From IMG/VR virus record IMGVR_UViG_2563366960_000002: DNA of 64,000 bases; one strand, 5' to 3'. Below the pieces are notes generated by a model. The model searched no databases. It was not told where the DNA came from and saw nothing but the letters and a program-made list of their open reading frames with translations. Source of the DNA: a virus. Lineage: Duplodnaviria > Heunggongvirae > Uroviricota > Caudoviricetes. A program made the position numbers and the translations under genes. Of the stretch, positions 14,982-45,526 are shown in pieces (position 1 is the stretch's first letter; each line of letters begins with the position of its first letter).

Positions 14982-16342
14982 TAATCCTCTTGCCAGTCAG
15001 CACCAGCATAGTTATCAAACCGTGAGTATTGGCCGTTAAAAGCCAATCTCACCGTGCCAATTGGGCCATTTCGTTGCTTACCGATAATCACCTCGGCAAT
15101 GCCCTTCATTTCGCTATCCGGGTGATAAACTTCGTCGCGATACAGAAACATGATCAGGTCTGCGTCCTGCTCAATTGCTCCTGATTCACGTAAATCTGAA
15201 TTTACCGGACGTTTGTCCGCACGCTGTTCAAGCGATCGATTAAGTTGTGACAATGCCACCACCGGTACTTGTAATTCCTTCGCCAACGCCTTCAGTGAGC
15301 GAGAAATCTCGGCAATTTCCAGCGTTCGGTTATCTTGCAGCTCGGGGACGCGCATAAGTTGCAGGTAGTCGATCATAATCATGCTCAAACCACCATTTTC
15401 TTTATAAACACGACGAGCGCGGGAACGTAGCTCTGTCGGCGTCAGGGCGCTTGAGTCATCAATAAAAATATTCTGCTTGTCCAACAGAATCCCCATTGCG
15501 CCAGAAACCCGCGCCCAATCCTCGTCGTTAAGTTGCCCTGTTCGAATACGAGTCTGATCAACGCGTGCAAGAGAAGCCAGTGAGCGCATCATCAGCTGGT
15601 GGCTCGGCATCTCAAGGCTAAAAACCAATACGGGCTTATCGTTACGGACTGCGGCATTTTCGACGAGATTCATCGCAAACGTAGTCTTCCCCATCGATGG
15701 GCGGGCGGCGACAATAATGAGATCGGACGCCTGAAGTCCTGCCGTCTTCTTATTGAGATCGGTAAATCCGGTATCAAGCCCCGTTACACCATCATGCGGT
15801 CGCTGAAACAACTCTTCTATGCGAGATACCGTTGCATCGAGAATGCTGGCGATATCTTTTGGACCACTACCGCTCTTTTGTCGTTTTTCAGCTATTTCAA
15901 AAACGCGGCGCTCGGCCATATCCAGCAATTCATTGCTGCCCCTGCCATCCTGCGCATATCCAGCTTCGGCTATTTCATTTGCGACGGAAATCATTTCACG
16001 AACAACCGCGCGTTCACGAACGATATCCGCATAAGCACAAATATTTGCCGCGCTGGGCGTGTTCTTTGACATCTCCGCAAGGTACGCAAAACCACCGGCG
16101 CGTTCTAATTTACCGTTCTGTTCAAGTGCTTCAGCAAGTGTTATCAAATCAATCGGTTTGCCATGACTTAATAACCTCTCCATCTCACTGAAAATTTCAC
16201 GATGAGCACTGGTATAAAAATCATCAGCAACTATACGATCTGCAACTTCATCCCAGCGGCAGTTATCAAGCATTAAGCCACCAAGTACAGCTTGTTCTGC
16301 ACTAAGGGAATTTGGCATGGATTCAAGAGGGGATGCAGACAT
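14978..16342 (-). CDS. ban: DnaB-family replicative helicase (P1 Ban-like)
   Basis: N-terminal AEQAVLGGLMLD, Walker A ARPSMGKTTFAMN, Walker B IMIDYLQL; start set at ATG 16342 after GGTGGAG RBS (track ORF begins at GTG 16348). Confidence 0.85.
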   Translation of the reverse strand: MSASPLESMPNSLSAEQAVLGGLMLDNCRWDEVADRIVADDFYTSAHREIFSEMERLLSHGKPIDLITLAEALEQNGKLERAGGFAYLAEMSKNTPSAANICAYADIVRERAVVREMISVANEIAEAGYAQDGRGSNELLDMAERRVFEIAEKRQKSGSGPKDIASILDATVSRIEELFQRPHDGVTGLDTGFTDLNKKTAGLQASDLIIVAARPSMGKTTFAMNLVENAAVRNDKPVLVFSLEMPSHQLMMRSLASLARVDQTRIRTGQLNDEDWARVSGAMGILLDKQNIFIDDSSALTPTELRSRARRVYKENGGLSMIMIDYLQLMRVPELQDNRTLEIAEISRSLKALAKELQVPVVALSQLNRSLEQRADKRPVNSDLRESGAIEQDADLIMFLYRDEVYHPDSEMKGIAEVIIGKQRNGPIGTVRLAFNGQYSRFDNYAGADWQEDY

Positions 16343-16627
16343 TAGCACTCCACCCAGGCGTGCTGAATGTCAGATATAATCGGCATACTCAAATCACTCC
16401 TAACGATATGAGTCATCACCAGAAAATCAGGATTAATGCGCCGGACTCTTCCCGGCTGTCACACCGAATCGCCAGGATGGTGAGTCCCTGTATCCGCTAT
16501 CCCTCCAACGGTGACTTGCACATTCCGGCTACCTGGTTTGTTGCCTGAGCTAGGGGAAAAGGTAACCCCTTTAACGTCACCAGACCGCTAACGACGCATG
16601 TGCCAGACGCCGTGTTACAACCAAATA

Positions 16628-16703
16628 TGGTGGCCCCTACCGGACTTGAACCGGTGACCGTGCGATTATGAGTCGCCAGCTCTAACCACTGAGCTAAAGG
16701 GCC
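16628..16703 (-). tRNA. tRNA-Ile (anticodon CAU, ileX-like)
   Basis: Cloverleaf read by eye: acceptor GGCCCTT/AGGGGCC, D-arm GCTC-AGTGGTTA-GAGC, anticodon loop CTCATAA, T-loop TTCAAGT, encoded CCA; near-identical to E. coli ileX as recalled. Confidence 0.8.
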
Positions 16704-16730
16704 GGATTACTGCCAATTTTGCTTACGCTT

Positions 16731-17558
16731 TTATTTCACCGGAACAAACGGAACAGCGGCATTACTGGTCATATACTGCGGTAATGTACCGTTCCATTTG
16801 TTGATCGCTTCCAACTCCATAACACCGGGGTTCTGGCGCAGAGCTTCACCACGTAAACGAATGGCATCAGCTTCGGCCTGGGCTTTTGTGCGAATAGCAT
16901 CAGCCTGTCCGGCAGCTTCCGCGCGCAGCATGTTGGCCTCTGCTTCACGTTGTTTGACCTCTTGCTCGCGTTGCAGGGTTTTTTGGTTTGCCGTAACTTT
17001 GGCGTTAATACTGTCAATAACTGTTGGCGGATATTCTGGCTTACCTACATAAGAGAGGCTCATCACCTGAATGCCGATTGGCGTCATTTCTTCCTGAATG
17101 TCTTTAAGGGCTGCATCAAGCAATTCAGATTTGCCACCGTCGATAAATTTGTCGGTGGTCATTTTGCTGGCTAACCGGTTCAGAGCATCTGCAACCTTCT
17201 GGCGTAGATCGGTATCAGTAATATCATCTACACCTTTGCGATAGGTCTGAAATACCGTTGTGACTTTTGCTGGATCAACCTTGTAGGCTACGCCGATGTG
17301 GTAACCAATGGTTGTTCCGTCGCTCATCTGGAAGCTGAACGGCTCATCGTATGTCTTCATTTGCTTAAAGGTCGGGAAGATATAAACTTCAGTATTCAAG
17401 CCTGTCCAGTAGCGACCAACACCAACTACTTCACCGATACCTTTATCATCCCCCAGCTTATTTACTTTGATCCCTACGTTACCTGGCTCTACCCGATCGC
17501 ATCCGGTCAGACATAAAGAACCCAAAATAATCGCTGCACTAATCAACGTTTTTTTCAT
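16731..17558 (-). CDS. plp: SPFH/band-7 domain lipoprotein (P1 Plp-like)
   Basis: 275-aa ORF; signal peptide with lipobox LTGC; band-7 core and C-terminal coiled coil. Confidence 0.65.
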   Translation of the reverse strand: MKKTLISAAIILGSLCLTGCDRVEPGNVGIKVNKLGDDKGIGEVVGVGRYWTGLNTEVYIFPTFKQMKTYDEPFSFQMSDGTTIGYHIGVAYKVDPAKVTTVFQTYRKGVDDITDTDLRQKVADALNRLASKMTTDKFIDGGKSELLDAALKDIQEEMTPIGIQVMSLSYVGKPEYPPTVIDSINAKVTANQKTLQREQEVKQREAEANMLRAEAAGQADAIRTKAQAEADAIRLRGEALRQNPGVMELEAINKWNGTLPQYMTSNAAVPFVPVK

Positions 17559-17775
17559 TAATTAATTTCCTGGTTTTTTCACGAAAAAAGACTACTGCGA
17601 AAGCCGGGTAAATGAGCGCGAGAAGGACTCCCAACAATACAAGTATTGTGCTGTTAGATGAGATCATATTTGGCAAAAGCCAAACATACAGAACCAGTGA
17701 CACAATCAAACAGAGGACGGCATAAATATATAACCGCACCCATAGCGTTCGACATTTGTTCGGATTGTTCTGCAT
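17539..17775 (-). CDS. small membrane protein (P1 Upl-like)
   Basis: 78-aa ORF with two hydrophobic helices, overlaps plp start. Confidence 0.5.
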   Translation of the reverse strand: MQNNPNKCRTLWVRLYIYAVLCLIVSLVLYVWLLPNMISSNSTILVLLGVLLALIYPAFAVVFFREKTRKLINEKNVD

Positions 17776-17931
17776 CCTCTCACTCCATTATTTAACGAAT
17801 AAAAAAGCTGCGGTGCCGGGTACCTCCCGGTGTCCTTTGGCTGGTTATCCACCGTGGACGGGGAAACAAGGAGAAATGAATGGACTGATATAACCATTTC
17901 CCCGCGTGCGCTTAGCCGCATTCACCGCAAT

Positions 17932-18031
17932 GGTAAGAGCACTTGGCTGGCTGGGCGGCGATGACGCCTGTATGCATTTGGTGATCCGGTTCTGCTTCCG
18001 GCATTCGCTTAATTAGCCAAATACTCTTAAC
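17932..18031 (-). repeat. GGTAAGAGCA-initiated structured element directly 3' of tRNA-Ser (imperfect partner TACTCTTAAC)
   Basis: Direct read; shares terminal motif with elements at 18497 and 19038. Confidence 0.3.
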
Positions 18032-18038
18032 GTTGCGC

Positions 18039-18125
18039 TGGCGGAGAGTAATGGAATCGAACCATCATCGCTTGCGCTATGGGACGGTTTTCAAGACCGC
18101 TTGAGCACCATGCTCCCTACTCTCC
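18039..18125 (-). tRNA. tRNA-Ser (anticodon UGA), class II with long variable arm
   Basis: Acceptor GGAGAGT/ACTCTCC, anticodon arm GCGGT-CTTGAAA-ACCGT, T-loop TTCGATT, encoded CCA; D-arm spacing non-canonical, needs covariance-model check. Confidence 0.65.
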
Positions 18126-18259
18126 CGTTATTGTGGCGACCGGTGCTGATCTCCGGCTTGCGGTTATTTCAGACTCTCACGGGCGTTTAATTGCCCCGCC
18201 GAACAGCTCTTTTCCGCAATAGCTGCAATGTCTTTCGCGCATCAGCCTGCGCATTCACC

Positions 18260-18350
18260 ACAACGTTGAGAACACTGGTTGTCACGCGCAACGCAACATT
18301 TATTCGTAGATTGGGATATGACCCCGTTACGCCAGTGTTCTCAACGTTGT
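18260..18350. repeat. perfect 19-bp inverted repeat ACAACGTTGAGAACACTGG / CCAGTGTTCTCAACGTTGT around a 53-nt spacer
   Basis: Direct read, arms 18260..18278 and 18332..18350. Confidence 0.7.
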
Positions 18351-18496
18351 AGTGCCGGTTACGGTTCCGGCCAGGCCTCTTCCTCAACGGGGTGTTCTCC
18401 ATACGGACTACCGTTTATTGGTCGTTCCTGCGGTTTATGTTGTGAAGCCAGATGCTTATCTTCTGGTTGCTTCAAAGAGCTGCACTTCATCACAAC

Positions 18497-18570
18497 GGTA
18501 AGAGCATTTATGGCTCGCATCGCGGGAAAAAGCCCACGGTAGAGAGTCGAACTCTACAAATGCTCTTACC
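18497..18570 (-). repeat. tRNA-sized palindromic element (13-bp terminal stem GGTAAGAGCATTT/AAATGCTCTTACC, internal T-arm-like hairpin) directly 3' of tRNA-Thr
   Basis: Direct read; no full cloverleaf could be drawn. Confidence 0.45.
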
Positions 18571-18578
18571 TGTTGTGT

Positions 18579-18654
18579 TGGTGCCGGTTAACGGGATCGA
18601 ACCGCTGACCATTCGCTTACAAAGCGACTGCTCTACCAACTGAGCTAAACCGGC
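18579..18654 (-). tRNA. tRNA-Thr (anticodon UGU)
   Basis: Acceptor GCCGGTT/AACCGGC, D-arm GCTC-AGTTGGTA-GAGC, anticodon loop TTTGTAA, T-loop TTCGATC, encoded CCA. Confidence 0.8.
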
Positions 18655-18658
18655 AATT

Positions 18659-18745
18659 TGGTGGGGAGTGATGGAGTCGAACCACCCGAGTCGCAATGAC
18701 AGTAGATTTACAGTCTACCCCGCTACCCCTACGGACTAACTCCCC
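18659..18745 (-). tRNA. tRNA-Tyr (anticodon GUA), class II
   Basis: Anticodon arm GTAGA-CTGTAAA-TCTAC and variable arm nearly identical to E. coli tRNA-Tyr as recalled; acceptor GGGGAGT/ACTCCCC; D-arm spacing irregular. Confidence 0.65.
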
Positions 18746-18750
18746 TAAAT

Positions 18751-18827
18751 TGGCGATGGTGGGTGGATTCGAACCACCGACCGACAGCTTAGAAGGCTGC
18801 TGCTCTATCCTACTGAGCTACACCATC
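18751..18827 (-). tRNA. tRNA-Arg (anticodon UCU)
   Basis: Acceptor GATGGTG/CACCATC, D-arm GCTC-AGTAGGATA-GAGC, anticodon arm GCAGC-CTTCTAA-GCTGT, T-arm GGTGG-TTCGAAT-CCACC, encoded CCA. Confidence 0.8.
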
Positions 18828-19037
18828 ACTTGCCGGGTACGTCTCCGGCGAGGGCTTCCACCTCCGTATGCTTTTCGGCGCACCGCGCCCTGGCTGCAAT
18901 TCGGTAACAGGGGATGCACAACCCTGGCTTCCAACGTGATTAGCGCCTTCAGCATGACGGGATATACCCGTAGTAGGACGTTATCTTCAAATTGCTAAAA
19001 GCAATTGCTGTTACGCAGAATGAAAAAGGACGTAACA

Positions 19038-19105
19038 GGTAAGGACGCTGACCAAAAAGATGGCCCCTTCTCGCTCATCTGGTTAATCGAACCAGCGCCC
19101 TTACC
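19038..19105. repeat. palindromic element GGTAAGGACGC...GCGCCCTTACC with internal CTGG-TTAATCGAA-CCAG hairpin
   Basis: Direct read; terminal motif shared with 18497..18570. Confidence 0.4.
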
Positions 19106-19496
19106 TGTTGTGCCTCCCCGTTCCCTAATACACAGACGGGGACACTCTGCGGTCGATTTTTTGACGGGGGACGACTCATACCCCGTGGCGTCTGGCTTCT
19201 TAGGCCGCTACCATCATCAGATCATCGTTTGCATTTACTTTAATGGTCAGTTTCTAAACCGCCGCAAAGTCGCTAACCATGACGAAAACCCTGAAAAAAA
19301 CGCCCACCCGAAGATGGGCAAACTGGAAGCTCGTAACGCACTTCGGTGTTGCCACTTAGGCGTATGGTCAACCTGGCAACTCGGCGTCATGATGGGGAAG
19401 GAGTCACTACCCCGCCATACTTGCCGCCGCGCCTGTCGCGGCTAACAGCTAAATCGCTCTATAAATCACGATTCATTGATGCGATATTACACTAAT

Positions 19497-19513
19497 AAAT
19501 TTATTAGAGCAAT
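19497..19513 (-). promoter_or_regulatory. C1-type operator, perfect 17/17 ATTGCTCTAATAAATTT, overlapping the last codons and stop of dmt
   Basis: Direct read; -35-like TTGCTC inside, TAATAT 17 bp downstream on minus strand; a degenerate inverted site follows at 19451..19469. Confidence 0.7.
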
Positions 19514-40879: not shown

Positions 40880-41090
40880 GGTTCCAATCTCAATGGCGGT
40901 AGCACTGACTGGGTTGGAACTACCGGCGCAAAAGGGAACCGGCCTGCCTTTCGGCAGCCCAGCCAGCACTACCATTGATCTCGGAGCTATGTGCTACGTA
41001 TGGCTGTGCGATGGCATGACACAAAAAAGACGCTTTTGGCGTCTGTGTCGCCTTTTGCATTATCCGGGGTTCCAATCCCGGCATCCGTTT
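40880..41090 (-). ncRNA. c4-type antisense RNA region with complementary target elements (boundaries approximate)
   Basis: Leader between operator/promoter and icd contains GGTAGTTCCAACC complementary to GGATTGGAACC upstream and GATTGGAACCTC downstream; the latter sits in a hairpin next to the icd RBS. Confidence 0.4.
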
Positions 41091-41170
41091 TACTAAGATG
41101 CCTGTTTAGGATAAACCGAAAATGCATTAGCACGCAAGAAAGTTAATGTAGCATATGAAGCTAAAAAAAC

Positions 41171-44644: not shown

Positions 44645-45526
44645 ATGCTTTTACCTCTTTTCCCGCTACCATCGCGGCCAACTGAATTGATCCAGTTCCG
44701 TCAGCCAAATATTGCTGATGCGATGCGTTTCAACTCGATAACACCGGAGGAACAAGAACAACAGACAACGGCGTATTTAAAAGCCTTGCTGGCTGAACCC
44801 GCGAAACATGATCCCCTGACATGGACGGCGCAGGACCGGATTACCGCGTTATGGTGGATATTTACCGGCTCCCGTGAAACACCGGTCGAGACATTCACCT
44901 ACACCTGTAAACATTGCGGTAAAGAGCACTATTACGATTGCGATATGAATGCTCTGGCTGAAGATATCCAGGTCCTGGAAGTGGAACCTTTCATTGACGA
45001 TATTGAGGTGTCTGTAGAGGGAGTACCTTATCAATGGCGTATCGTGCCGCTTGATGGCTGGGCAATGGAAATGCTGGAGATGCGCCGTGCAGCATTGCCA
45101 CCTGAAGACGACGCGGAATTCAAAGAAGCGATCGTTGATTTGCGTTTTTGGGAATTCGCTTATCAGTGTGAGCTTTATAACGATGTTAGCGGTACTCGTG
45201 AAGATCAGGCTGAGCGTCGTTATGAAACGATTAAACGGATGGCCATTGATACTGAATTTATGAAGCTGGCGGCACACATCCGACTGGCTCATGAAAAGCT
45301 CGAACATGGTTTACCGTGCTACATCGATAAAGGTGAAATGCGTCTTCGTCTCCCGCCGCATAAATGCCCAAATCAGGATAAAAAGGAGTCCACAGAGGGT
45401 GCGTATACCCGTCTGTGGGTGCCCTTTCGGGCTACCGACTTCATTCCACAGGTGGGGATTGAAAAGCTATCAGACCTTAGTGTCCAACCTGGTTTTGTAT
45501 GGGGGTATACCGATTCAGGACGCTGA
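44645..45526 (+). CDS. hypothetical tail-module protein with CxxC...C motif
   Basis: 293-aa ORF; CKHCGKEHYYDC. Confidence 0.5.
   Translation: MLLPLFPLPSRPTELIQFRQPNIADAMRFNSITPEEQEQQTTAYLKALLAEPAKHDPLTWTAQDRITALWWIFTGSRETPVETFTYTCKHCGKEHYYDCDMNALAEDIQVLEVEPFIDDIEVSVEGVPYQWRIVPLDGWAMEMLEMRRAALPPEDDAEFKEAIVDLRFWEFAYQCELYNDVSGTREDQAERRYETIKRMAIDTEFMKLAAHIRLAHEKLEHGLPCYIDKGEMRLRLPPHKCPNQDKKESTEGAYTRLWVPFRATDFIPQVGIEKLSDLSVQPGFVWGYTDSGR

What the first reader, a model, noticed from the sequence alone, without database searches (positions are those of the whole stretch)
17932..19105. Repeated GGTAAG...CTTACC palindromic elements in the tRNA region
Seen: tRNA-sized elements at 18497..18570 and 19038..19105 are each closed by a 10 to 13-bp terminal stem (GGTAAGAGCATTT/AAATGCTCTTACC; GGTAAGGACGC/GCGCCCTTACC) and contain an internal hairpin with a TCGAA loop; a third weaker copy (17932..18031) starts with the same GGTAAGAGCA. 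Two of the three begin within 8 nt of a tRNA 3' end on the transcribed strand. None is explained by a gene. Inference: tRNA-derived remnants, processing or termination hairpins, or a small repeat family.
Basis: seen in the sequence. Interest (0 to 1): 0.55.

Follow-up and report, generated by a model that had tools for sequence, protein, structure and literature searches.

The report
Conserved RNA clamp hairpins in phage leaders
The repeated GGTAAG...CTTACC palindromes are four copies of a widespread phage RNA module, also present in phage lambda: a nearly invariant ~20-bp stem enclosing an interchangeable small structured RNA, which most likely serves as an RNase III cutting site that separates tRNAs and small RNAs from a long untranslated leader transcript.

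Summary
The window is a P1-like phage-plasmid, and the finding lies in the untranslated leader of the ban operon on the minus strand. Each is closed by a 19-23 bp helix, about twice as long as reported.

The helix, CACAAC-A-GGUAAGAGCAYUG / CAGUGCUCUUNCC-GUUGUG, recurs almost unchanged in more than 120 viral contigs and in prophages of at least 14 Enterobacterales genera. In phage lambda it sits directly after tR'. It always lies in sense orientation between antiterminator Q and the holin gene. It encloses about 55 unrelated interiors ("cargos") of 31-143 nt, and only about 11% of these have a tRNA-like T-arm.

G.U wobbles and compensatory changes show that it folds as RNA on the transcribed strand. 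No Rfam 15 family, tRNA finder or terminator scan explains it.

The best explanation (confidence about 0.55) is an RNase III processing clamp. It would free the tRNA 3' ends and sRNA 5' ends and release the cargo. The sequence conservation may also let phages swap cargos by recombination. The mechanism is inferred; it was not shown here.

The parts
19031..19112 (-). Element E-A. Clamp helix CACAAC-A-GGUAAGGGCGCUG / CAGCGUCCUUACC-U-GUUACG encloses a 42-nt cargo. It lies about 200 nt upstream of tRNA-Arg on the transcript.
   Evidence: Inverted repeat I4. Fold z = -5.7. Clamp model gives 18.9 bits, E = 1.5e-3, scored on the + strand of this near-symmetric copy. The P1 homologue scores 24.9 bits on the sense strand against 14.2 bits antisense.
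18491..18577 (-). Element E-B. Canonical clamp (CACAAC-A-GGUAAGAGCAUUU / AAAUGCUCUUACC-GUUGUG) starting 1 nt after the CCA of tRNA-Thr. The cargo is three hairpins (T-arm-like GUAGAG-UUCGACU-CUCUAC, CGUGGG-CUUUUU-CCCGCG, AUG-CGAGC-CAU), giving a cloverleaf-like four-way junction.
   Evidence: I10. Fold z = -7.1. Clamp model gives 56.3 bits, E = 3.8e-15, on the minus strand against 37.2 bits on the plus strand. Each interior helix has compensatory changes in 6 distinct homologues.
18256..18354 (-). It is a 23-bp near-perfect helix CACUACAACGUUGAGAACACUGG / CCAGUGUUCUCAACGUUGUGGUG. The outer ACAAC/GUUGU and the 3' flank GGUGAAUGCGCAG are kept, and the middle of the stem is changed on both arms. 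The cargo is two hairpins.
   Evidence: Inverted repeat I1, 23 nt, 96% complementary. Fold -56 kcal/mol, z = -6.0. Partial clamp-model hit on the 3' arm plus flank, 13.2 bits, E = 0.08. Conserved in P1.
17926..18038 (-). Element E-D. Divergent clamp (CGCAAC-G-UUAAGAGUAUUUGGCU / AGCCAAGUGCUCUUACC-AUUGCG) directly after the CCA of tRNA-Ser. Its ~65-nt cargo core is 97% identical to lambda 44866-44930.
   Evidence: Clamp model gives 21.1 bits, E = 3e-4, minus strand. Fold z = -3.8. Cargo core is conserved in lambda, Salmonella phage ST1UNAM and rV5-like phage phita32, each with a different closing stem.
18579..18827 (-). tRNA-Arg(UCU), tRNA-Tyr(GUA) and tRNA-Thr(UGU) cluster lying between E-A and E-B on the same transcript.
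   Evidence: ARAGORN; Rfam tRNA.
18039..18125 (-). tRNA-Ser(UGA). Its CCA end abuts E-D.
   Evidence: ARAGORN. The same tRNA-Ser plus E-D-core pairing is seen in rV5-like phages.
17809..17929 (-). STnc100/PasD-like small RNA module starting at the conserved GGUGAAUGCG flank of E-D. It ends in a stem followed by a U-run.
   Evidence: Rfam RF02076 gives 35.1 bits, below the gathering score of 47, E = 4e-5, model positions 31-147. The same flank follows dicF in prophage Qin.
19301..19520 (-). Start of the ban-operon leader. It holds the region homologous to P1 Pban/Oban, a segment homologous to the sequence upstream of dicF in prophage Qin, and the only terminator-like hairpin of the region (19301-19320).
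   Evidence: P1 annotation. Sequence comparison. Terminator scan.

Best explanation
The elements are four copies of a modular RNA unit carried in long untranslated leader transcripts of temperate enterobacterial phages. These leaders are the P1 ban-operon leader here and the late leader between Q/PR'-tR' and the lysis genes in lambdoid phages.

Each unit has two parts:
- A nearly invariant "clamp" helix of about 19-23 bp. From the outside in it has 6 bp (CACAAC/GUUGUG), a bulged A, two G-C pairs, a frequent U.U mismatch, then about 10 bp (AAGAGCAYUG/CAGUGCUCUU).
- An interchangeable structured "cargo" of 31-143 nt.

I propose that the clamp is a substrate of host RNase III. Cleavage in the helix would cut the polycistronic leader into pieces. 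It would remove the stable helix that otherwise blocks 3' trimming of tRNA-Thr and tRNA-Ser, whose CCA ends lie 0-1 nt from the stem. It would create the 5' ends of downstream small RNAs such as the STnc100-like module. It would release the cargo as a small hairpin RNA.

The near-identity of the arms across unrelated cargos may also reflect that they act as portable homology for exchanging cargos between co-resident phages.

Shown here: the structure, its strand, its conservation, its context and the replacement of cargos. Inferred: RNase III cleavage and its consequences.
For: 1. RNA-level helix on the transcribed strand.
- In 109 unique elements, G.U or U.G pairs reach 83%, 19% and 10% at three stem positions. 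A.C or C.A, which would be the wobble on the other strand, is at most 5% within the conserved stem.
- P1 and this window differ at E-B by two compensatory double changes in the arms, while the downstream flank and the adjoining tRNA-Thr still align closely.
- E-C keeps a 23-bp helix with a changed middle.

2. Size fits RNase III.
- The outer helix has a median of 19 bp over a 22-nt span. The enzyme's dimer valley holds about 22 bp (PMC6212723).
- The two invariant central G-C pairs recall the G-C preference between the two cut sites reported there.

3. Context.
- 61 of 61 nearby Q antiterminator genes, of three Pfam families, are upstream on the same strand. Holins lie downstream.
- In lambda the clamp is at 44788-44870, directly after tR'.
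- In the centroid fold, the clamp is the longest helix of the lambda late leader downstream of tR'.

4. The tRNA CCA ends abut the helix. This leaves no single-stranded trailer for the usual RNase E and exonuclease pathway (established tRNA maturation knowledge).

5. The elements are not terminators, not tRNAs and not in Rfam 15.

6. An independent clamp model finds only these four sites in the window.
Against: - No cleavage data were available. I could not read the 1988 lambda paper, so the match between its RNase III sites and the clamp is unverified.
- RNase III needs little sequence specificity. Cleavage alone does not explain why the arm sequence is about 95% invariant from Brenneria and Serratia to E. 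coli.
- The bulged A and the central mismatch could just as well be a protein-recognition signature, or features that limit cleavage.
- In rV5-like phages the E-D core is closed by a shorter stem of about 11 bp with a different sequence. That stem may not be an RNase III substrate, so the cargo's role does not depend on the clamp.
- E. coli K-12 prophages DLP12 and Qin lack the clamp, so the published K-12 RNase III maps cannot be used.
Confidence: 0.55

Rival explanations
1. Recombination linkers, acting at the DNA level. The conserved arms plus the GGTGAATGCGCAG flank would be short portable homologies, like the "boundary sequences" annotated in lambdoid phages. Their main role would be to let phage or host recombinases swap the intervening segment, and the RNA helix would be incidental.
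For: - About 55 unrelated cargos sit between near-identical arms.
- P1 and this window carry different cargos at the same two positions, with identical flanks.
- The lambda-type E-D core appears in P1-like, siphoviral and rV5-like phages.
- The CUS-3 record annotates boundary sequences bsq4 and bsq3 on either side of its clamp.
Against: - Pure DNA homology does not require the two arms to be complementary to each other.
- It does not predict strand-specific G.U wobbles, compensatory arm changes or a strictly sense orientation.
- This rival is compatible with the RNA function as a second, evolutionary role.
Confidence: 0.15
2. Uncleaved structural insulator or stabiliser. The clamp would isolate each cargo so that it folds independently. 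It would also block 3' exonucleases or Rho loading on a long untranslated leader, and would not itself be cut.
For: - The helices are very stable (-44 to -56 kcal/mol).
- The leader is about 1.7 kb and shows no ORF conserved among relatives.
- Arrays of 2-3 clamps occur in late leaders.
Against: - A stable helix 0-1 nt after the CCA would prevent 3' maturation of tRNA-Thr and tRNA-Ser unless something cuts it.
- This model does not explain the sequence invariance either.
Confidence: 0.13
3. Protein-binding scaffold in the manner of Y RNA (YrlA). The long terminal helix would bind a conserved host or phage protein, and the cargo (a tRNA mimic in E-B) would be the effector or tether.
For: - E-B runs stem, T-arm, stem-loop, small arm, stem. 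This is the same circular order as YrlA (PMC4201824).
- The conserved bulge and mismatch look like a recognition signature.
- T-arm hairpins are enriched among cargos: 11 observed against 0.15 expected from shuffles.
Against: - Rfam YrlA (RF02553) gives no hit at E <= 10 in 16000-20500.
- There is no GNCGAA(N)G motif in the 5' strand.
- No Ro60/TROVE gene lies nearby. From my own knowledge, not a tool result, E. coli lacks Rsr.
- About 89% of cargos have no T-arm.
Confidence: 0.07
4. Mobile DNA: a MITE-like element, or an integron attC-like recombination site folded as single-stranded DNA.
For: - The elements have terminal inverted repeats, a variable centre and a size of 80-190 bp.
- The ends ..AAC / GTT.. 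with an extrahelical base loosely resemble the attC R boxes (reading).
Against: - The elements are always in one orientation and one kind of location.
- No target-site duplication is evident in the flanks of the elements read (not searched for systematically), and no transposase or integron integrase gene lies next to them in the regions whose annotation I read.
- attC sites are conserved in structure but not in sequence, which is the opposite of what is seen here.
- Clamp-model hits in the 64-kb window are confined to this one leader.
Confidence: 0.03

Closest known systems
RNase III processing hairpins in phage and rRNA operon transcripts (T7 R-sites; the 16S/23S leader-trailer helices; the lambda late-leader RNase III sites of Daniels et al. 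1988)
   Same: About two turns of dsRNA formed by sequences flanking a structured RNA, inside a polycistronic, largely untranslated transcript. The sequence-similar T7 sites are recalled from my own knowledge, not tested here; they suggest that repeated, sequence-similar copies within phage genomes have a precedent. The lambda copy lies where late-leader RNase III sites could be.
   Different: Cleavage is not demonstrated for any member here. The arms are near-invariant across many genera and enclose dozens of unrelated interiors, a pattern absent from Rfam 15 and from the literature I could search.
YrlA / bacterial Y RNAs (Rfam RF02553; Chen et al. 2014, PMC4201824)
   Same: A long terminal helix closes a tRNA-like module with the permuted arm order (T-arm first), as in E-B and its homologues.
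   Different: No Rfam hit, no Rsr-binding motif and no Ro60 neighbour. The T-arm occurs in only a minority of cargos.
STnc100 / PasD prophage sRNAs (RF02076; bioRxiv 10.64898/2026.05.13.724894)
   Same: Same genomic niche, next to antiterminator Q in lambdoid prophages. An STnc100-like module starts at the conserved 3' flank (GGUGAAU...) of E-D.
   Different: These are terminator-bearing, Hfq-type sRNAs lying downstream of the clamp. They do not include the clamp-and-cargo unit, and the match in the window is below the gathering score.
Boundary sequences of lambdoid phages (bsq features annotated in phage CUS-3)
   Same: Short conserved non-coding segments at mosaic joints in the Q-to-holin interval.
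   Different: The annotated bsq4 and bsq3 flank the clamp and overlap it by only 5 nt. They are described as DNA joints, not as RNA helices.
Integron attC sites
   Same: An imperfect palindrome with conserved ends, an extrahelical base and a variable centre of similar size.
   Different: No integrase. Here the sequence rather than the structure is conserved. The elements are fixed in sense orientation in transcribed leaders.

Membership tests
Clamp-and-cargo leader element (unnamed family defined here) | Arms match CACAAC-A-GGWAAGAGCAYUG / CAGUGCUCUUNCC-GUUGUG and pair into an 18-bp or longer helix | tested here: met
   The clamp model R1, built without P1-type sequences, gives E-B 56.3 bits, E-D 21.1, E-A 18.9 and E-C a partial 13.2. 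E-C and E-D are divergent members that keep the helix.
Clamp-and-cargo leader element (unnamed family defined here) | Sense orientation within an untranslated operon leader | tested here: met
   All four lie on the strand of the tRNAs and ban, downstream of the region homologous to P1 Pban. In other phages Q is upstream on the same strand in 61 of 61 cases.
E. coli RNase III substrate | Intramolecular dsRNA of about 20-22 bp | tested here: met
   Family median is 19 bp over a 22-nt span. The window copies have 19-23 bp. The size requirement is taken from PMC6212723.
E. coli RNase III substrate | rnc-dependent staggered double cleavage leaving 2-nt 3' overhangs | not testable with these tools
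   No transcript-end data are available. The lambda 1988 paper is not held. The K-12 maps are unusable because DLP12 and Qin lack the clamp.
E. coli RNase III substrate | Base-pair preferences of the proximal, middle and distal boxes | not tested
   The scoring table (Supplementary Table S4 of PMC6212723) is not held. I note only the central G-C pairs.
tRNA | Cloverleaf recognised by ARAGORN or Rfam RF00005 | tested here: not met
   Neither tool calls any of the four elements, even at E <= 10.
YrlA / Y RNA (RF02553) | Match to the family covariance model | tested here: not met
   No hit at E <= 10 in 16000-20500. The model is in the library.
YrlA / Y RNA (RF02553) | GNCGAAN0-1G Rsr-binding motif near the 5' end | tested here: not met
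   The motif is absent from the 5' strands of all four elements (reading).
YrlA / Y RNA (RF02553) | Encoded within about 4 kb of a Ro60/TROVE gene on the same strand | tested here: not met
   The neighbours are dmt, a 78-aa ORF, an SPFH protein and the ban helicase.
Intrinsic terminator | G+C-rich hairpin followed immediately by a U-tract | tested here: not met
   The only terminator-like site in 17600-19600 is at 19301-19323, outside the elements.
MITE / transposon | Scattered insertion sites and orientations, with target-site duplications | tested here: not met
   One context and one orientation. Confined to this leader within the window. Target-site duplications were not searched for systematically; none is evident in the flanks read.
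Integron attC | Array next to an intI integrase, with the core site GTTRRRY | tested here: not met
   The 3' end GTTGTGG matches GTTRRRY at only 5 of 7 positions. No integrase appears in the annotated neighbourhoods I read.
STnc100 (RF02076) | Score at or above the gathering threshold | tested here: not met
   35.1 bits against a threshold of 47. The match covers the sequence downstream of E-D, not the elements themselves.

The most novel reading that the evidence does not exclude
Temperate enterobacterial phages share an undescribed "clamp-and-cargo" RNA cassette system. A sequence-invariant ~20-bp helix would act as a universal processing and expression adaptor. Dozens of unrelated small RNAs, including permuted tRNA mimics such as E-B, would be inserted into it and exchanged between phages as different as lambda, P22-like phages and P1. 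The cargos would be functional effectors, such as regulators, decoys for tRNA-targeting defences or enzyme substrates, diversifying under selection. In effect this would be an RNA-level analogue of integron cassettes sitting in operon leaders.
Probability: 0.3. Interest if true: 0.8.

Novelty: new variant of a known kind. Interest (0 to 1): 0.6.

Why it matters
The clamp sits in phage lambda, the most studied phage, and upstream of the lysis genes in many prophages of pathogens. BLAST hits include three Stx2-converting phage records. It is nevertheless absent from Rfam 15 and from almost all genome annotations. In P1 the region is instead annotated as the doubtful ORFs upl and plp.

If the clamp is a processing site, it sets how phage tRNAs and prophage small RNAs (the STnc100/PasD type) are matured from leader transcripts. 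It could also affect expression of downstream late or ban-operon genes.

The invariant stem with exchangeable interiors is also a natural, compact design for expressing small structured RNAs. It gives a handle for finding new phage small RNAs: search for the clamp and read the cargo.

Tried and rejected
- Rfam at gathering and at E <= 10 on the window and on 22 related loci returned only tRNAs, C4, isrK, isrJ and a sub-threshold STnc100 hit. No family covers the elements.
- YrlA/Y RNA was considered because of E-B's permuted tRNA-like order. It was rejected as a family assignment.
- Terminators were rejected.
- Protein-coding explanations were rejected. The plp ORF is broken in relatives.
- The K-12 prophages DLP12 and Qin were scanned so that published RNase III maps could be used. 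They contain no clamp.
- I tried to read Daniels et al. 1988, the P1 genome paper and the Casjens-Hendrix lambda review. None is held.
- The RNase III scoring matrix is not held.
- A full-text search for the arm sequences found no paper.
- The "boundary sequence" annotation in CUS-3 looked like a prior name for the element. It covers the flanks, not the clamp.
- My first fuzzy-regex scan was too strict and strand-ambiguous. I replaced it with arm HMMs and a covariance model.
- The weak tmRNA_permuted hits were judged to be noise.
Full report
**Where the finding lies**

The window is a P1-type phage-plasmid. The stretch 17500-19500 is 100% identical to E. coli plasmid NZ_CP124376 and about 90-95% identical to P1, P7, D6, RCS47 and SJ46. 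By comparison with the annotated P1 genome, the finding lies on the minus strand in the leader of the ban operon. The order along the transcript is:
- dmt (19504-21768), followed by the region homologous to the C1-controlled promoter Pban;
- about 1.7 kb with no ORF conserved among relatives;
- a 78-aa ORF, an SPFH protein (Pfam Band_7), a tRNA with anticodon CAT, and the ban helicase.

ARAGORN and Rfam find tRNA-Arg, tRNA-Tyr and tRNA-Thr at 18579-18827 and tRNA-Ser at 18039-18125, all on the minus strand.

**The observation**

The three reported palindromes are real (I10 is 13 of 13 paired, I4 is 17 nt at 94%). Read on the transcribed strand they are larger than described.
- Each stem continues outward through CACAAC/GUUGUG, past a bulged A, to 19-23 bp.
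- A fourth element with a 23-bp stem lies at 18256-18354 (I1).
- I call them E-A (19031-19112), E-B (18491-18577), E-C (18256-18354) and E-D (17926-18038).
- Minus-strand folds have z-scores of -5.7, -7.1, -6.0 and -3.8.
- E-B begins 1 nt after the CCA of tRNA-Thr. E-D begins directly after the CCA of tRNA-Ser.

**The family is not specific to P1**

BLAST of the four elements against phage genomes gave these matches:
- lambda, where the interior of E-D is 97% identical to 44866-44930;
- Enterobacter phage CobraSix, which carries an E-B homologue;
- Salmonella phage ST1UNAM, which carries two elements;
- rV5-like phages, which carry the E-D interior right after their tRNA-Ser, closed by a different stem.

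Lambda itself has CACAACAGGTAAGAGCA...TGCTCTTTCCGTTGTG at 44788-44870, immediately after the tR' terminator of the 6S RNA.

These contigs yield 109 unique elements.

A two-arm pattern search in one genome per species gave 40 hits. Of these, 21 are lambda-identical sequences in unrelated taxa or low-coverage contigs, which is evidently lambda DNA contamination. The other 19 are genuine and all lie in Enterobacterales: Serratia, Pantoea, Klebsiella, Kluyvera, Citrobacter, Rouxiella, Erwinia, Enterobacter, Brenneria, Acerihabitans, Phytobacter, Raoultella, Pseudocitrobacter and Superficieibacter.

**Anatomy**

The arms are nearly invariant. From the outside in, the helix has:
- 6 bp, CACAAC/GUUGUG;
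- a bulged A (94% of elements);
- two G-C pairs;
- a position that is unpaired in 57% of elements (U.U 51%, A.A 6%);
- 7 bp, AAGAGCA/UGCUCUU;
- a U.G wobble (83%), then U-A and G-C.

A conserved 3' flank, GGUGAAUGCGCAG, follows. The outer helix has a median of 19 bp spanning 22 nt.

The interior is not conserved. The 104 unique interiors fall into about 55 unrelated classes of 31-143 nt. Only 6 classes (11 interiors) have a T-arm-like hairpin, defined as a stem of at least 4 bp with a UUCRANN loop. That is far above the 0.15 expected from shuffles, but it is a minority.

**It folds as RNA on the sense strand**

- G.U and U.G pairs are common at three stem positions. A.C and C.A, which would be the wobbles of the opposite strand, are at most 5% within the conserved stem.
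- P1 and this window differ at E-B by two compensatory double changes in the arms (AGC/GCU to GGU/ACC). The sequence downstream is essentially identical, and the interior is replaced.
- E-C keeps a 23-bp helix with a different middle.
- The E-B interior forms three hairpins, giving a cloverleaf-like four-way junction. Each hairpin has compensatory changes among six distinct homologues. Overall 96.6% of cells are paired, against 35-61% when partners are slid, and 5 pairs have changes on both sides. The sample is small.

**Context and orientation**

In the viral contigs, the nearest upstream ORF on the element's strand is an antiterminator Q from one of three Pfam families. The nearest downstream ORF is a holin. 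All 61 detected Q homologues near an element are upstream on the same strand. Only 28 of 116 loci hold any tRNA, so the association with tRNAs is secondary. The common denominator is a long untranslated operon leader.

**Membership of the window copies**

I built a covariance model of the clamp alone from 48 elements, excluding P1-type sequences. In the 64-kb window it hits only the four elements:
- E-B: 56.3 bits, E = 3.8e-15;
- E-D: 21.1 bits, E = 3e-4;
- E-A: 18.9 bits, E = 1.5e-3;
- E-C: partial hit, 13.2 bits, E = 0.08.

In twelve other loci the sense strand outscores the antisense strand by roughly 10-45 bits. This comparison is partly circular, because the model was trained on sense-oriented copies.

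**What it is not**

- It matches no Rfam 15 family, either in the window or in 22 related loci.
- It is not a tRNA.
- It is not YrlA. The model is in the library, but there is no hit at E <= 10, no GNCGAA(N)G motif and no Ro60 neighbour.
- It is not a terminator.
- It is not coding. P1's plp ORF on the opposite strand is broken by a stop and a frameshift in this window and in relatives, and its C-terminus is simply the antisense of tRNA-Thr.
- It is not a scattered mobile element, since it has one context and one orientation.

**Mechanism**

Most of this section is inference. The clamp is two helical turns of dsRNA, the size that the RNase III dimer accommodates (PMC6212723). It sits inside polycistronic leaders that must be cut into tRNAs and small RNAs. 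At tRNA-Thr and tRNA-Ser it leaves no single-stranded trailer after the CCA, so an endonucleolytic cut in the helix is the simplest route to a mature 3' end.

[quoted passage not shown] 1988, cited in PMC7547250). I could not read it. From my own recollection, which is unverified, the sites lie in a stem just beyond tR'. That is where the clamp is, and in the centroid fold the clamp is the longest helix downstream of tR'.

RNase III alone does not explain the invariance of the arm sequence. I therefore consider that the arms also act as portable homology for cargo exchange, or that a protein reads the bulge and mismatch. These ideas are listed as rivals or complements.

Downstream of E-D the conserved flank leads into an STnc100/PasD-like module. 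That sRNA family is known from the Q-proximal region of prophages (bioRxiv 10.64898/2026.05.13.724894). This fits a role for the clamp in generating sRNA 5' ends.

**Novelty**

RNase III hairpins in phage leaders are a known kind, and one member (lambda) was probably mapped in 1988. Three things appear to be undescribed:
- the family itself;
- its near-invariant arms across many genera;
- its dozens of exchangeable interiors, including a covarying cloverleaf-like, T-arm-bearing RNA.

The supporting evidence is that Rfam has no model, genome records annotate nothing or spurious ORFs under the matches, and no paper in the searchable library prints the arm sequence. The boundary sequences annotated in phage CUS-3 flank the clamp but do not cover it. 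I rate the finding a new variant of a known kind, interest 0.6.

Noticed in passing
window 18256-18354 (-): A fourth clamp element, E-C, with a 23-bp near-perfect stem lies between tRNA-Thr/E-B and tRNA-Ser.
   Followed up: yes
window 17809-17929 (-): An STnc100/PasD-like small RNA module (RF02076, 35 bits, below the gathering score of 47) lies directly after E-D and ends in a stem plus U-run. The same GGUGAAUGCGGCU(A/G)AGCGCACGCGG start follows dicF in K-12 prophage Qin (L127 1160-1185).
   Followed up: partly
window 19301-19425 (-); L127 975-1070: The first ~130 nt of the ban leader are homologous to the sequence upstream of dicF in prophage Qin and end in the only clean terminator-like hairpin of the region (19301-19320). 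This corresponds to P1's annotated "dicF-like region", but Rfam DicF does not hit it.
   Followed up: partly
L001 2659-3228 (P1 upl, plp); window ~18230-18610 (+): The P1 reference ORF plp is interrupted by a stop and a frameshift in this window and in L009, L014 and L002. It runs antisense to tRNA-Thr and to clamp elements. upl is absent from the window. Both are probably annotation artefacts.
   Followed up: yes
L132, L135, L138, L140, L142, L144-L147, L151, L152, L154, L156, L157, L159-L161, L163, L168-L170: 21 GTDB species-representative assemblies of unrelated taxa (Pseudomonas, Oceanobacillus, Kitasatospora, Segatella and others) carry a sequence identical to the lambda clamp, often on contigs of about 48 kb or with coverage near 1. 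This is almost certainly lambda DNA contamination of the assemblies.
   Followed up: partly
L003 688-786 (lambda 44853-44951): In lambda the 3' end of the clamp (GUUGUGCUG) can alternatively pair with CAGCACAAC downstream, which encloses the E-D-like core. The MFE fold uses this pairing and the centroid fold uses the clamp, so the two may be mutually exclusive structures.
   Followed up: partly
window 17947-18011 (-); L003 701-765; L004 1501-1567; L006 1515-1585: The ~65-nt E-D core (AAUUAAGCGAAUGCCGGAAGCAGAACCGGAUCACCAAAUGC.UACAGGCGUCAUCGCCGCCCAGC) is 88-97% conserved across P1-like, lambda, siphoviral and virulent rV5-like phages, with a different closing stem in each. It appears to be an independent conserved RNA of unknown function.
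   Followed up: partly
window 40892-40979 (-) and 41023-41101 (-): Rfam finds C4 antisense RNA (76.7 bits) and isrK (58.5 bits), consistent with the P1 immI (c4/icd/ant) region.
   Followed up: no
window 19200-19305 (-); L006 1086-1209: A stretch conserved between the P1-type leader and Salmonella phage ST1UNAM gives weak tmRNA_permuted hits (24-27 bits against a gathering score of 47). These are probably noise, but the segment is conserved and structured.
   Followed up: no
L004 1585-1681 (phage phita32): An unannotated tRNA-like sequence (Rfam tRNA, 35.5 bits) with a long insertion lies between the E-D-like element and tRNA-Thr in an rV5-like phage.
   Followed up: no
L001 2692-2725 (P1); L005 ~1478-1498 (CobraSix); L150, L164, L167: A small conserved hairpin, GCUCCACGAAACGGAGC, immediately precedes the clamp in a subset of phages. 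Its function is unknown.
   Followed up: no
window 16628-16703 (-): ARAGORN calls this CAT-anticodon gene tRNA-Met. It is the counterpart of P1 trnI, which is annotated as tRNA-Ile2 and read as Ile after lysidine modification.
   Followed up: no
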